Shown here: piece by piece, positions 12,406 to 53,075 of the stretch | Numbering within the stretch: the first letter of the stretch is position 1 | Layout: each line of letters starts with the position of its first letter | Source of the DNA: Patescibacteria group bacterium | Lineage (GTDB): Bacteria; Patescibacteriota; WWE3; UBA101185; UBA10185 | Direction of reading: 5' to 3' | NCBI GenBank assembly: GCA_018825365.1 | Contig: JAHJEV010000003.1 | Span: forward strand, 108,670-172,669 | Length of the DNA: 64,000 bases | The notes under the pieces: generated by a model | What the model was told of the DNA's origin: nothing | The model's input: only the letters and a program-made list of their open reading frames with translations | The model's database searches: none | Program-made: the position numbers and the translations under genes

Positions 12406-12496
12406 TATACTTTTATGTTAAACTATCTTTGTTTTTCCTCGTGTGGTATGGCTCAATACACGATGAGGTGGGAGAGATTAAGAAGGGTGGGTGCTT

Positions 12497-12572
12497 AGCG
12501 GGGTAGCCTAGTTAGGTTCAAGGCGTCTCAGTTTAAATGAGAAAATCTCAGGTTCAAATCCTGACCCCGCTA
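12497..12572 (+). tRNA. class I tRNA with anticodon UUA (ochre-suppressor-like); A1-U72, A73, no encoded CCA
   Basis: Hand-folded, every stem Watson-Crick: acceptor agcgggg/ccccgct, D gcct/aggc, anticodon stem tctca/tgaga with loop GTTTAAA (positions 34-36 = TTA), 5-nt variable loop, T arm tcagg-TTCAAAT-cctga. It is followed by ttagc, not CCA. Confidence 0.7.
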
Positions 12573-12602
12573 TTAGCTTATTTATTTAAACCAATCTTTT
12601 AA

Positions 12603-38659: not shown

Positions 38660-38737
38660 GCGCCTGTAGCCTAATGGATAGGGCACTTGTCTTCGGAACA
38701 AGGTTATGTGGGGGTTCGACTCCCCCCGGGCGCGCCA
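38660..38737 (+). tRNA. tRNA-Arg (anticodon TCG)
   Basis: Acceptor gcgcctg/cgggcgc, anticodon stem cttgt/acaag with loop CTTCGGA, G73 and CCA. Confidence 0.8.
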
Positions 38738-38929
38738 TTTAAAGATCCGCATTTCCGTATGCCCCCAAAACTGTGCAGACCCCCTTTGAGAAAATCATTC
38801 GGGGCCTTTTCATTTTCAATATTTTTTAAATAATATTTTCAGTCCTAGTATTGACATTACATAAAAATACATTCATTATTTTATCAAGAGCGATGAATTT
38901 AACTCTGCCCAACAAATTTATAAAAAAGG

Positions 38930-38962
38930 TAAGCACTTTGATAGGATTCGAGTGCTTTTTTT
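38930..38962 (+). terminator. intrinsic terminator
   Basis: Stem aagcact...agtgctt followed by ttttttt. A TTGACA at 38851 with an ATTATT -10 lies about 80 nt upstream, so a short transcript (candidate sRNA) is possible. Confidence 0.45.
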
Positions 38963-39114
38963 ATTGCTTTTAAAAGAATGGGTTAAATGAACCTTGGTGA
39001 GATGCCCAAGTCGAGGATCTAAAACTAACTTGAAAATTTAAACAGTTTTGAACAACTGGAATGGTTAACATGAAATTTAACCAGTATTAATTTACTCATA
39101 AGGAGGGTGAAACA

Positions 39115-39162
39115 ATGCCAGCAAAGAAGAAAAAGGTAGTCAAGAAAAAAAAGAAGAAATAG
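39115..39162 (+). CDS. 15-codon lysine-rich mini-ORF (MPAKKKKVVKKKKKK)
   Basis: Strong SD AGGAGGG 7 nt upstream of the ATG. 11 of 15 codons are AAA/AAG. A T-run follows the stop. Lies about 100 nt upstream of tRNA-Lys(CUU). Confidence 0.35.
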   Translation: MPAKKKKVVKKKKKK

Positions 39163-39261
39163 TTTTTTTCTAAACAGCAGTCAATACGTAATAGTAGAAG
39201 GCTGCTGTTTGATTTGGTATGAAATGCGAGGAGAGAATATAATGTATAATGTCATGGGTTT

Positions 39262-39336
39262 GGGGACGTAGCTCAGTGGTAGAGCAGTGGACTCTTAATC
39301 CATTTGTCGAGGGTTCGAATCCCTCCGTCCTCACCA
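39262..39336 (+). tRNA. tRNA-Lys (anticodon CTT)
   Basis: Acceptor ggggacg/cgtcctc, anticodon stem gtgga/tccat with loop CTCTTAA, A73 and CCA. Confidence 0.85.
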
Positions 39337-51883: not shown

Positions 51884-51995
51884 AATACAAGTTAGATTTT
51901 ACCAAAAATGACGAGGTATTTCTGTACGCAGGGCCAGGATGAAATTTATCCGATTTGGCGTATAATACCTTACAGCTGCCCAAACTACTATTAAC

Positions 51996-53075
51996 ATGTC
52001 TAAAATCAGTGATCTATTTACTAATAACAACTGGTCGCCACAAACAAAAGACCGAGTTTTCAAGGTTTTAAGGTGGTTTGTTGCTATTATTGGCTTACTT
52101 GTTGTTATATCGATACTTTCACCAACAGCACTAAACATACTCTTAAATATACTTAGAGTTATAAGTATTGGAATAGTAAGTATTTTCTTTGTCCTGGGAA
52201 TACTTGTAGTAATCGGTTTAAGAAAAGAGGCTACCAGAATTTTGGATATTTTGCTTGAGGGGTCGCTTAGCTTTATAGATGTTGTTGAATTTTTGAAAAT
52301 TCTTTACCACAGATTTCTGGAAATGTTGAAGGAGTTTTTGATCTATATTACGCCAATTCTTGCCTACATAACCGCGGGGGTTATTTATATTCTTCTTCTT
52401 GTTATCTACAAGACCATAGGAAGAAGTTACGACGTGACTTTGTTCACCATACTTATAACAATTATATTGGTGGCTTCCGTCGCTTTACTAAATAGAAACA
52501 AAAATCAAGACGAACCGGCTACCACGTATACAAAAAGAGTTGCCATAATATATAAGAGGTACTTTATAGATAGTTTTGAAATTGTTCTATTGCTTTTCTT
52601 CCTAACTATAGACAGCACTCGCCTCTTTTTCCTTCCTGATAGCTTAAATGTAAAAATACTATCTAAATTTGATGGCTATGACTTAATGACCAGGGCATTT
52701 ACTACAACCCATCTAAACTGGACCATAAATATAGTTACGGTTGCGATAGTAAGTGAAATTATAAGATACTCGATGAGAATCACCGCTTTGGCAAAGCGAT
52801 ACTACGCATCCATTTTGGAGCCAAGGAGAATCGTCAGAATAAAAATTGCTGTCAGAATGGCTTTTGGGAATGCGAAAGATGATATTGTAAGGTTTATAAC
52901 ATTCACAACTGTGTTGTTTTCTGTTTTCTTGATATTCCCAAGATTAAAGCTTCTATCCTTAGCTGTAACGAGTTTAACGAACCTGGCAATTGACTTGCTA
53001 ATCCCAGAGAGACTTGTAATCTCACGGGGCAAGGACTTAATAAACAGGGTAATTAACAAGATTTTTAAACTTTAA
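51996..53075 (+). CDS. hypothetical polytopic membrane protein
   Basis: 359 aa with multiple TM helices. No recognisable domain. Confidence 0.4.
   Translation: MSKISDLFTNNNWSPQTKDRVFKVLRWFVAIIGLLVVISILSPTALNILLNILRVISIGIVSIFFVLGILVVIGLRKEATRILDILLEGSLSFIDVVEFLKILYHRFLEMLKEFLIYITPILAYITAGVIYILLLVIYKTIGRSYDVTLFTILITIILVASVALLNRNKNQDEPATTYTKRVAIIYKRYFIDSFEIVLLLFFLTIDSTRLFFLPDSLNVKILSKFDGYDLMTRAFTTTHLNWTINIVTVAIVSEIIRYSMRITALAKRYYASILEPRRIVRIKIAVRMAFGNAKDDIVRFITFTTVLFSVFLIFPRLKLLSLAVTSLTNLAIDLLIPERLVISRGKDLINRVINKIFKL

What the first reader, a model, noticed from the sequence alone, without database searches (positions are those of the whole stretch)
39100..39336. Lysine-only 15-codon ORF with a consensus SD about 100 nt upstream of tRNA-Lys(CUU)
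MPAKKKKVVKKKKKK is encoded almost entirely by AAG/AAA codons, with AGGAGGG placed 7 nt before the ATG and a T-run right after the stop. Runs of Lys codons stall or slide ribosomes, and AAG codons specifically need tRNA-Lys(CUU), which is encoded immediately downstream. This looks like a leader-peptide sensor of Lys-tRNA availability coupled to transcription of the tRNA gene, or else a genuine ultra-short polybasic peptide. Either would be unusual.
Basis: partly seen in the sequence, partly recalled or inferred. Interest (0 to 1): 0.5.

Follow-up and report, generated by a model that had tools for sequence, protein, structure and literature searches.

The report
Tiny stand-alone polylysine peptide gene
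A 15-codon gene that encodes almost nothing but lysine looks real and conserved. It belongs to a widespread, unannotated class of tiny polylysine genes found from CPR bacteria to soil Chloroflexota, and it does not appear to be a sensor controlling the lysine tRNA gene next to it.

Summary
A Shine-Dalgarno site (AAGGAGGG, 39100-39107) sits 7 nt before ATG 39115. The ORF MPAKKKKVVKKKKKK ends at TAG 39160-39162, followed by a T-run, and tRNA-Lys(CUU) starts 99 nt further on.

The tRNA-sensing leader model is not supported:
- An 11-bp hairpin follows the ORF.
- A promoter-like box (TAATGTATAAT) lies between that hairpin and the tRNA. It is conserved in five WWE3-type lineages, two of which lack the ORF.
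- The purine-only ORF cannot form an antiterminator.
- Of 49 distinct similar mini-ORFs in metagenomes, only the two from this same lineage lie near a tRNA-Lys.

- In-frame K-rich versions exist in relatives found through neighbouring genes (25 aa; 22 aa MAVKKKK...).
- SD-led, terminator-followed 13-47 aa MPAKKK(K)... ORFs occur in 28-72% GC contigs. These include two NCBI Chloroflexota MAGs where the ORF is unannotated.
- Synonymous changes occur at Pro/Ala/Gly codons.
- AAG is enriched and breaks up poly(A) runs.
- Anti-SD complementarity is unusually long.

No Pfam, NCBIfam, PDB, Rfam or literature match was found. The function, probably a nucleic-acid-binding polycation, is inferred and not shown.

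The parts
38851..38879 (+). Promoter-like site (TTGACA, 17 nt, CATTAT) at the head of the conserved upstream unit.
   Evidence: 10 of 12 matches. The block AGTATTGACATT is identical in L003 and L137, and CATTAT is also identical in L137; L003 has a different -10 region.
38884..38962 (+). Conserved leader or sRNA-like RNA. It has a single-stranded motif CTCTGCCCAACAAATTTATAAAAAA (38903-38927), a hairpin AGCACT/AGTGCT (38932-38956) and a T-run to 38962. It may be the 5' leader or attenuator of the polylysine gene, or a separate small RNA.
   Evidence: The motif occurs only in loci that carry the mini-ORF. The reading frame is not conserved in L003, so it is probably not coding. No Rfam match.
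39100..39107 (+). Shine-Dalgarno sequence AAGGAGGG, 7 nt upstream of the ATG.
   Evidence: AAGGAGGG is conserved in L003 and L137. Across the class, anti-SD complementarity has a median of 9 nt, against 6 nt for long ORFs caught by the same pattern.
39115..39162 (+). 15-codon ORF MPAKKKKVVKKKKKK plus TAG stop. This is the polylysine micro-gene.
   Evidence: In-frame K-rich counterparts exist in L003 (25 aa) and L137 (22 aa). AAG makes up 60% of its Lys codons, against 29% in the window's long ORFs.
39163..39171 (+). Pyrimidine run TTTTTTTCT between the stop codon and the hairpin.
   Evidence: In the MFE fold it pairs weakly with the purine 3' end of the ORF.
39172..39218 (+). 11-bp hairpin (AAACAGCAGTC / GGCTGCTGTTT, 39172-39182 and 39200-39210) with a GATTTGGT tail. 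This is the likely intrinsic terminator of the micro-gene.
   Evidence: z = -3.9. The stem is kept in L137 and kept through two compensatory changes in L003, where the T-tail is stronger. Of 48 class members, 67% have a hairpin with a T-rich tail, against 6.8% of random segments.
39214..39256 (+). Promoter-like region of the tRNA gene: TTGGTA, 18 nt, TATAAT (39238-39243), and a second TATAAT at 39245-39250. The conserved block is AGAGAATATAATGTATAATGTCATG.
   Evidence: TAATGTATAAT lies 11-13 nt before the tRNA in the window, L003, L137, L134 and L135. The last two have no mini-ORF.
39262..39336 (+). tRNA-Lys(CUU). It is a neighbour and not part of the micro-gene.

Best explanation
The 15-codon ORF is a real, independently expressed micro-gene. 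A strong SD drives translation of a roughly +10-charged peptide, (M)PAKKKKVVKKKKKK. A hairpin right after the stop ends the transcript. The tRNA-Lys(CUU) gene 99 nt downstream is read from its own promoter.

The gene belongs to a widespread, unannotated class of SD-led, terminator-followed polylysine ORFs of 13-47 aa. Most begin MPAKKK(K). Their length drifts by in-frame gain and loss of K-rich codons.

What is shown: the anatomy, conservation of the ORF as a coding frame, its independence from the tRNA, and the codon signatures.

What is inferred: that the peptide accumulates, and that it acts as a small polycation binding RNA or DNA (ribosome, tRNA or nucleoid). This would work like the tiny basic ribosomal proteins bS22/eL41, bL37 and Thx, or like Ala/Lys-rich tails of ribosomal and histone-like proteins, without being a member of those families.

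The adjacency to tRNA-Lys(CUU) is best read as lineage-specific synteny.
For: Anatomy:
- SD, ORF, hairpin and promoter are all present.
- The ORF is not a chance product: 0 of 200 shuffles gave one.

Conservation found through neighbouring genes, so without bias toward the ORF:
- L003, a WWE3 MAG whose PIG-L is 87% identical, has MPAKKKKKTAKKAVKKKVVKRKKKK.
- L137, whose 144-aa neighbour is 66% identical, has MAVKKKKPAKKAKKKVTKKKKK.
- Both have AAGGAGGG, a hairpin (with compensatory changes in L003) and the same tRNA promoter box.

The wider class:
- A metagenome scan returned 47 distinct K-rich ORFs of 50 aa or fewer, in contigs of 28-72% GC.
- In high-GC groups the peptide is kept while Pro/Ala/Gly third positions and the TAA/TAG stop vary.
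- Two NCBI Chloroflexota/Limnocylindria MAGs, reached through the neighbouring nth gene, carry MPAKKKAKKSSKKK(H/K) with a perfect SD and a terminator. No gene is called there.

Stand-alone architecture:
- 32 of 48 loci have a hairpin with a T-rich tail within 80 nt of the stop, against 6.8% of controls.
- The neighbouring genes are unrelated from lineage to lineage.

Translation-type signatures:
- After codon 7 in low-GC loci, AAG is used 56 of 105 times against 25 expected (p = 8e-11).
- The longest A-runs are shorter than genomic codon usage predicts: L003 5 vs 13.6, L137 6 vs 11.9, window 8 vs 12.4.
- Anti-SD complementarity is longer than in control ORFs (p = 6e-8).

Independence from the tRNA.
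Against: - There is no expression, ribosome-profiling or peptide evidence.
- The peptide is low-complexity, so homology between lineages cannot be proven. The shared MPAKKKK start was imposed by the search pattern. Longer, unrelated proteins also begin MPAKKKK.
- The window's hairpin has a weak T-tail (GATTTGGT), so some read-through into the tRNA is possible.
- The ORF-to-tRNA spacing of about 100 nt is kept in three WWE3 lineages. That is suggestive of more than accident.
- The function is inferred purely from charge and analogy. There is no hit to any family.
- The orthologous groups are not statistically independent, which inflates the p-values.
Confidence: 0.62

Rival explanations
1. Leader-peptide attenuator. 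Translation of the Lys-codon ORF senses Lys-tRNA(CUU) supply and, through the downstream hairpin, sets how much transcription reads into the tRNA-Lys(CUU) gene.
For: - The ORF sits about 100 nt upstream of tRNA-Lys(CUU) in three WWE3 lineages: window, L003 and L137.
- AAG, the codon read by this tRNA, is enriched.
- The hairpin starts only 9 nt after the stop, so a terminating ribosome could touch it.
- The T-tail is weak in the window.
Against: - A conserved -10-like box lies between the hairpin and the tRNA. It persists in L134 and L135, where thyX replaces the ORF.
- There is only one stable hairpin. The ORF contains 3 U and cannot pair with either hairpin arm, so no antiterminator exists.
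- The logic is inverted: stalling on AAG would favour termination, giving less tRNA.
- 47 of 49 distinct class members have no tRNA-Lys nearby.
- AAG enrichment is explained by avoidance of A-runs, and it also occurs in members with no tRNA neighbour.
Confidence: 0.07
2. The RNA, or the act of translating it, is the functional product, and the peptide is not. One form: a short, highly ribosome-avid mRNA with near-perfect anti-SD complementarity that titrates or parks 30S subunits or ribosomes. Another form: a purine-rich regulatory RNA. In both, the polylysine peptide is a by-product.
For: - Anti-SD complementarity is unusually long: up to 12-13 nt, with a median of 9 against 6 in controls.
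- The peptide sequence is only loosely constrained in its middle (A/S/G/V/T/K interchange) and its length varies from 13 to 47 aa.
- Polylysine is a translation-slowing sequence. This is established knowledge and was not tested here.
Against: - Third-position variation at Pro/Ala/Gly codons with the amino acids kept, a fixed stop position, and exclusion of acidic and hydrophobic residues all point to selection on the peptide.
- A-runs are broken up, as expected if faithful decoding matters.
- No conserved RNA structure spans the ORF.
- No Rfam family matches.
Confidence: 0.2
3. Chance ORF in AT-rich intergenic DNA, or a decaying remnant of a longer Lys-rich gene, with no function.
For: - The window is 37% GC and A-rich runs are common.
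- The window's version (15 aa) is shorter than its relatives' versions (22 and 25 aa).
- Two related lineages lack it.
Against: - 0 of 200 shuffles produce such an ORF.
- The SD, frame, stop-then-hairpin layout and K-richness are kept in relatives whose neighbouring proteins are only 66-87% identical.
- Equivalent 14-16 aa ORFs persist in 62-72% GC genomes, against the mutational bias of those genomes.
Confidence: 0.04

Closest known systems
Tiny basic ribosomal proteins: bS22 (related to eL41 and mS38), bL37, Thx
   Same: They are very short (24-33 aa), more than 60% Lys/Arg, often unannotated because of their size, and bind rRNA pockets by charge (PMC10618245, read). Like them, this ORF has a strong SD and is missed by gene callers.
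   Different: - Those proteins are Arg-rich helices with conserved Met, Leu and His positions and an essentially fixed length.
- This peptide is Lys-only with A/V/T/S spacers, is 13-47 aa across the class, and begins with Pro-Ala.
- There is no NCBIfam, Pfam or PDB sequence match.
- Ribosome association has not been tested.
Lys/Ala-rich histone-H1-like proteins and tails (chlamydial Hc2; the C-terminal Ala/Lys-rich region of uS19 in Parcubacteria)
   Same: They share the AKK/VKK/TKK-type low-complexity composition. Longer proteins of 73-93 aa with MPAKKKK followed by repeated (V/A)AKKK units occur in similar low-GC contigs. PMC9297842 reports an Ala/Lys-rich uS19 extension of about 25 aa in CPR.
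   Different: - Those are 100-200 aa proteins, or tails fused to folded domains. This is a free 15-mer.
- The only Pfam signal is HC2 at E = 0.11, for an 85-aa relative. That is far below the cut-off.
Amino-acid-sensing leader peptides of transcription attenuators (trpL, hisL, pheL, leuL and similar)
   Same: They are short SD-led ORFs packed with codons for one amino acid and followed closely by a hairpin.
   Different: - There are no overlapping alternative structures.
- A promoter lies between the ORF and the supposed target.
- The target is a tRNA gene and not a biosynthetic operon.
- ORF and target do not co-occur across relatives.

Membership tests
Ribosome-mediated attenuation leader peptide | Short ORF enriched in codons of the sensed amino acid. 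| tested here: met
   10 of 15 codons are Lys.
Ribosome-mediated attenuation leader peptide | Mutually exclusive terminator and antiterminator structures that overlap the ORF. | tested here: not met
   The window and L003 each fold into a single stable hairpin. The ORF is unpaired and nearly pure purine, so it cannot pair with either arm.
Ribosome-mediated attenuation leader peptide | The regulated gene is transcribed only through the leader, with no promoter in between. | tested here: not met
   TTGGTA-18-TATAAT lies at 39214-39243. The TAATGTATAAT box is conserved before the tRNA in five lineages, including two without the ORF. This is sequence evidence only; promoter activity was not measured.
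Ribosome-mediated attenuation leader peptide | Leader and regulated gene co-occur across relatives. | tested here: not met
   L134 and L135 have the tRNA without the ORF. 47 of 49 distinct class members have no tRNA-Lys within 300 nt.
bS22 / eL41-type ribosomal protein | Sequence match to the family profile or to solved chains. | tested here: not met
   No NCBIfam hit at E <= 10 for five class members. No relevant Pfam hit. No PDB chain at E <= 10. The 15-aa window peptide itself is below the tools' 20-aa minimum, so longer relatives were tested instead.
bS22 / eL41-type ribosomal protein | Physical presence in the ribosome (the h44/h45 pocket). | not testable with these tools
   This needs cryo-EM or top-down mass spectrometry of purified ribosomes.
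Histone H1-like Lys-rich nucleoid protein (Pfam HC2) | Profile match above the Pfam gathering score. | tested here: not met
   The best result was HC2 at 13 bits against a 40-bit cut-off, for an 85-aa relative. The 25-, 42- and 47-aa members gave nothing.
Intrinsic (Rho-independent) terminator downstream of the ORF | GC-containing stem-loop followed by a T-rich tail. | tested here: met
   The window has an 11-bp stem with a GATTTGGT tail, which is weak. L003's tail is TTTTGTTTCTT. 67% of class members meet the criterion, against 6.8% of controls. The consensus scanner did not flag the window's hairpin, because its 17-nt loop and tail fall outside that scanner's limits.
Any described RNA family (Rfam 15) | Covariance-model match over the ORF or the leader. 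| tested here: not met
   Only tRNAs reached the gathering score in the window and in 18 loci. In 38730-39270 the best E-value was 0.41, a match to an unrelated sRNA on the opposite strand.

The most novel reading that the evidence does not exclude
Polylysine peptides of about 15 residues (MPAKKK...) are an ancient, unrecognised gene family shared by CPR bacteria and Chloroflexota. They are translated from mRNAs with near-perfect anti-SD complementarity. They act either as a stoichiometric polycationic component of the ribosome or nucleoid, or as a regulator of ribosome availability. The family would have stayed invisible because it is too short for gene callers, is masked as low complexity, and is destroyed by trypsin. 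In the WWE3 lineage it would additionally be controlled by a conserved upstream leader RNA.
Probability: 0.3. Interest if true: 0.8.

Novelty: new variant of a known kind. Interest (0 to 1): 0.6.

Why it matters
If these ORFs are translated, bacteria from very different phyla maintain genes whose whole product is a 13-25-residue lysine run. Four consequences follow.
- It exposes a systematic blind spot. The ORFs are absent from a 15-billion-protein collection. They are not called in NCBI MAGs. They would also be invisible to tryptic proteomics.
- Polylysine is usually treated as a translation-impeding or quality-control-triggering sequence. A conserved gene made of it, with codon choice tuned to avoid slippery A-runs, gives a natural system for studying how bacteria decode such tracts.
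- For CPR bacteria, which have reduced ribosomes, a free polycationic peptide is a candidate missing RNA-binding component.
- It corrects a tempting but wrong inference that a Lys-codon ORF next to a tRNA-Lys gene must be a tRNA sensor.

Tried and rejected
- Family and structure look-ups found nothing: NCBIfam, Pfam, PDB sequences, and Rfam at gathering and permissive thresholds.
- Exact-sequence look-ups of 16 class members in the protein collection all failed. The 15-aa peptide is below that tool's minimum length.
- Literature searches found no description of such peptides. Terms tried: MPAKKK, lysine-rich or polybasic small proteins, Lys-codon leader peptides, and CPR lysine-rich.
- Loci anchored on PIG-L beyond L003 (L004-L013) have lost synteny and show no mini-ORF within 6 kb.
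- Contigs for P0002, P0006 and P0007 were too short to reach the ORF position.
- An acidic partner ORF is not general. It appears in only 2 of 56 loci, and the window has no remnant of it.
- The upstream conserved ATG...CTGCCCA stretch was considered as a second small ORF. This was rejected because the frame is broken in L003 and there is no SD.
- CTGCCCAA as a repeated motif in the window: 4 matches, and 6 of 100 shuffles do as well, so this is not significant.
- Downstream folding z-scores against random segments were uninformative in high-GC loci. An explicit hairpin-plus-T-tail test replaced them.

Full report
**Observation**

- AAGGAGGG lies at 39100-39107, and ATG at 39115.
- The fifteen codons are ATG CCA GCA AAG AAG AAA AAG GTA GTC AAG AAA AAA AAG AAG AAA. 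TAG follows at 39160-39162.
- A T7 run follows the stop.
- tRNA-Lys(CUU) lies at 39262-39336 (ARAGORN; Rfam).

An SD-led ORF of 8-45 aa with at least 60% Lys occurs once in the window. It occurred in none of 200 dinucleotide-preserving shuffles.

The window comes from GCA_018813105.1, contig JAHJCK010000002.1. This is a 37% GC Patescibacteria/WWE3-type MAG.

- Nine nucleotides after the stop there is an 11-bp hairpin (39172-39182 / 39200-39210) with the tail GATTTGGT. It dominates the fold of the region (z = -3.9).
- Then comes TTGGTA-18-TATAAT at 39214-39243, with a second TATAAT at 39245-39250. That puts the second box 11 nt before the mature tRNA 5' end.
- Upstream there is a TTGACA-17-CATTAT promoter-like site (38851-38879). 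It is followed by a conserved single-stranded motif (CTCTGCCCAACAAATTTATAAAAAA), then a hairpin and T-run ending at 38962.

**Relatives reached through neighbouring genes**

These searches were not biased toward the ORF.
- L003 is a WWE3 MAG whose PIG-L is 87% identical. It has MPAKKKKKTAKKAVKKKVVKRKKKK behind AAGGAGGG. Its hairpin keeps the stem through two compensatory changes and has a good T-tail. It also has the ATAATGTATAAT box and tRNA-Lys(CUU).
- L137 has a 144-aa neighbour that is 66% identical. It carries MAVKKKKPAKKAKKKVTKKKKK with the same SD, hairpin, promoter box, tRNA and upstream leader unit.
- L134 and L135 have neighbours 72% and 63% identical. They keep tRNA-Arg, tRNA-Lys(CUU) and the TAATGTATAAT box. 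They have thyX where the ORF would be, with no mini-ORF and no leader motif.

So the tRNA and its promoter box stand without the ORF. The ORF and the upstream leader travel together.

**A wider class**

One metagenome scan used the pattern GGAGG, N5-10, then ATG CCN GCN (AAR)x4.
- About half of the hits are complete K-rich ORFs of 8-47 aa. There are 47 distinct ones, in contigs of 28-72% GC.
- In high-GC contigs, three flank groups carry 14-16-aa versions such as MPAKKKKAAKKGKKK. Third positions of Pro/Ala/Gly codons and the TAA/TAG stop vary. The K-rich, small-residue composition and the short length (14-16 aa) hold, with A/S/G/K swaps in the middle.
- A 45-nt stretch of about 30% GC kept in 62-72% GC genomes is hard to explain without selection.
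- One group was placed by its neighbouring endonuclease III in Chloroflexota / Candidatus Limnocylindria.
- Fetching two NCBI MAGs through that neighbour found MPAKKKAKKSSKKKH and MPAKKKAKKSSKKKK. These variants would not have matched my pattern. Each has AGAAGGAGGTGAT or GGAGGAGGTGAT upstream and a clean terminator. No gene is called there.

**Architecture and codon signatures of the class**

- 32 of 48 distinct loci have a perfect-stem hairpin with a T-rich tail within 80 nt of the stop. Only 6.8% of random segments from the same loci do (folds).
- Neighbouring genes differ from lineage to lineage. Examples are ECF sigma with nth, HemN-like genes, fmt with a site-2 protease, and serS with secA. 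These are therefore not leaders of a particular operon.
- Anti-SD complementarity is longer than in long ORFs captured by the same pattern: median 9 against 6 nt, and up to 13.
- In low-GC loci AAG is over-used. After codon 7 it appears 56 times out of 105, against 25 expected. Per locus the figures are, for example 73% against 21% in L082.
- The effect is to shorten A-runs well below what genomic codon usage would give: 5 against 13.6 in L003, 6 against 11.9 in L137, and 8 against 12.4 in the window.
- Long A-runs cause slippage and ribosome sliding. That is established knowledge and was not tested here. The bias therefore fits selection for faithful expression, and it removes the need to invoke the tRNA(CUU) neighbour.

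**Why the tRNA-sensor model fails**

1. A promoter-like box conserved in five lineages lies between the hairpin and the tRNA. It remains when the ORF is absent.
2. The ORF has three U residues and cannot pair with either hairpin arm, so there is no antiterminator.
3. A ribosome stalled on AAG codons would leave the hairpin free. Low tRNA supply would then lower read-through, which is the wrong sign for homeostasis.
4. Only 2 of 49 distinct class members with enough downstream sequence have a tRNA-Lys within 300 nt. Both are copies of the window and L003 lineages.

What remains in its favour is the constant spacing of about 100 nt in three WWE3 lineages, and a weak T-tail in the window. I give this model 0.07.

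**What the gene most likely does**

The shown facts support a stand-alone, strongly initiated micro-gene whose product is a polylysine peptide. The function is inferred. A +10 peptide with only small spacers will bind polyanions, and the ribosome, tRNA or nucleoid are the obvious partners.

The nearest precedents are listed below.
- The tiny basic ribosomal proteins bS22/eL41, bL37 and Thx. These are also routinely unannotated (PMC10618245).
- The Ala/Lys-rich uS19 extension reported in CPR (PMC9297842).
- H1-like Lys-rich proteins.

Membership in these families was tested by sequence and not met. The variable length (13-47 aa) also argues against a fixed ribosomal pocket.

A rival I cannot exclude (0.2) is that the very SD-avid mRNA, or its translation, is the functional entity and the peptide is not.

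**Caveats**

- The shared MPAKKKK start across phyla was imposed by the search pattern. Unrelated longer proteins also begin that way. Low complexity prevents proof of homology between phyla.
- The orthologous groups are not independent samples, so p-values are inflated.
- There are no expression data.

**Novelty and score**

No database or paper I could search describes these ORFs. I rate it a new variant of a known kind (very small polycationic proteins), with interest 0.6.

The more novel reading is an ancient family shared by CPR and Chloroflexota, acting on the ribosome or nucleoid. I recall from the literature that these lineages have been proposed as sister groups; I did not check this here. 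I give that reading a probability of about 0.3.

Noticed in passing
window 38851-38962 (also L003 5318-5452 and L137 1560-1680, minus strand): A conserved unit lies upstream of the polylysine ORF. It has a TTGACAT promoter, the single-stranded motif CTCTGCCCA..AAATT.AT(A)AAAAA, and a hairpin with a T-run. The motif block is nearly identical between the window and L137, although overall identity of the first 170 nt is only about 60%. The motif occurs only in loci that have the mini-ORF. In L003 its terminator abuts the next SD, which suggests an attenuator or leader, or else a separate sRNA. No Rfam match.
   Followed up: partly
window 12496-12573 (+): ARAGORN calls a tRNA with anticodon UUA ('tRNA-Stop'), and Rfam scores it as tRNA at 65.5 bits. 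It has a 5-bp anticodon stem (TCTCA/TGAGA) and the loop GTTTAAA. Yet TAA is the commonest stop codon of long ORFs in the window (22 of 42). It may be a suppressor-like or otherwise unusual tRNA.
   Followed up: partly
L003 5465-5662 (also L082), and L053 174-272: A small, very acidic ORF ends 41-47 nt before the polylysine ORF in two unrelated lineages. In L003 it is 65 aa with a DE-rich tail; in L053 it is 32 aa. It is absent from the window and from most other loci (2 of 56). It could be an acidic partner or chaperone, or a coincidence.
   Followed up: partly
L142 3672-3719 (-) and L144 3675-3722 (-), plus many metagenome loci (e.g. L088, L060, L114): The SD regions of the mini-ORFs match up to 12-13 consecutive nucleotides of the anti-SD complement (AGAAGGAGGTGATC, TAAGGAGGTGAT). 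This is far longer than in ordinary genes caught by the same search pattern.
   Followed up: yes
L048, L098, L091, L074, L099 (metagenome loci): Proteins of 73-93 aa consist only of MPAKKKK followed by repeated (V/A/P)AKKK units. Other proteins have MPAKKKK-led K-rich tails fused to folded domains, such as the SWIB-like domain in L086. None of the 73-93-aa repeat proteins is in the protein collection by exact sequence (L086 was not looked up). Together with the mini-ORFs they form a length continuum.
   Followed up: partly
L134 6990-7170 and L135 2072-2092: In two WWE3 relatives, thyX sits between tRNA-Arg and tRNA-Lys(CUU), where the window has the leader and the polylysine ORF. In L135 the thyX stop codon lies inside the conserved TAATGTATAAT box of the tRNA.
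   Followed up: yes
window 51976-51983 (+): A second CTGCCCAA lies 12 nt upstream of the ATG of the ORF at 51996-53075, just after a TATAAT. The motif count in the window is not significant (6 of 100 shuffles reach 4 matches).
   Followed up: partly
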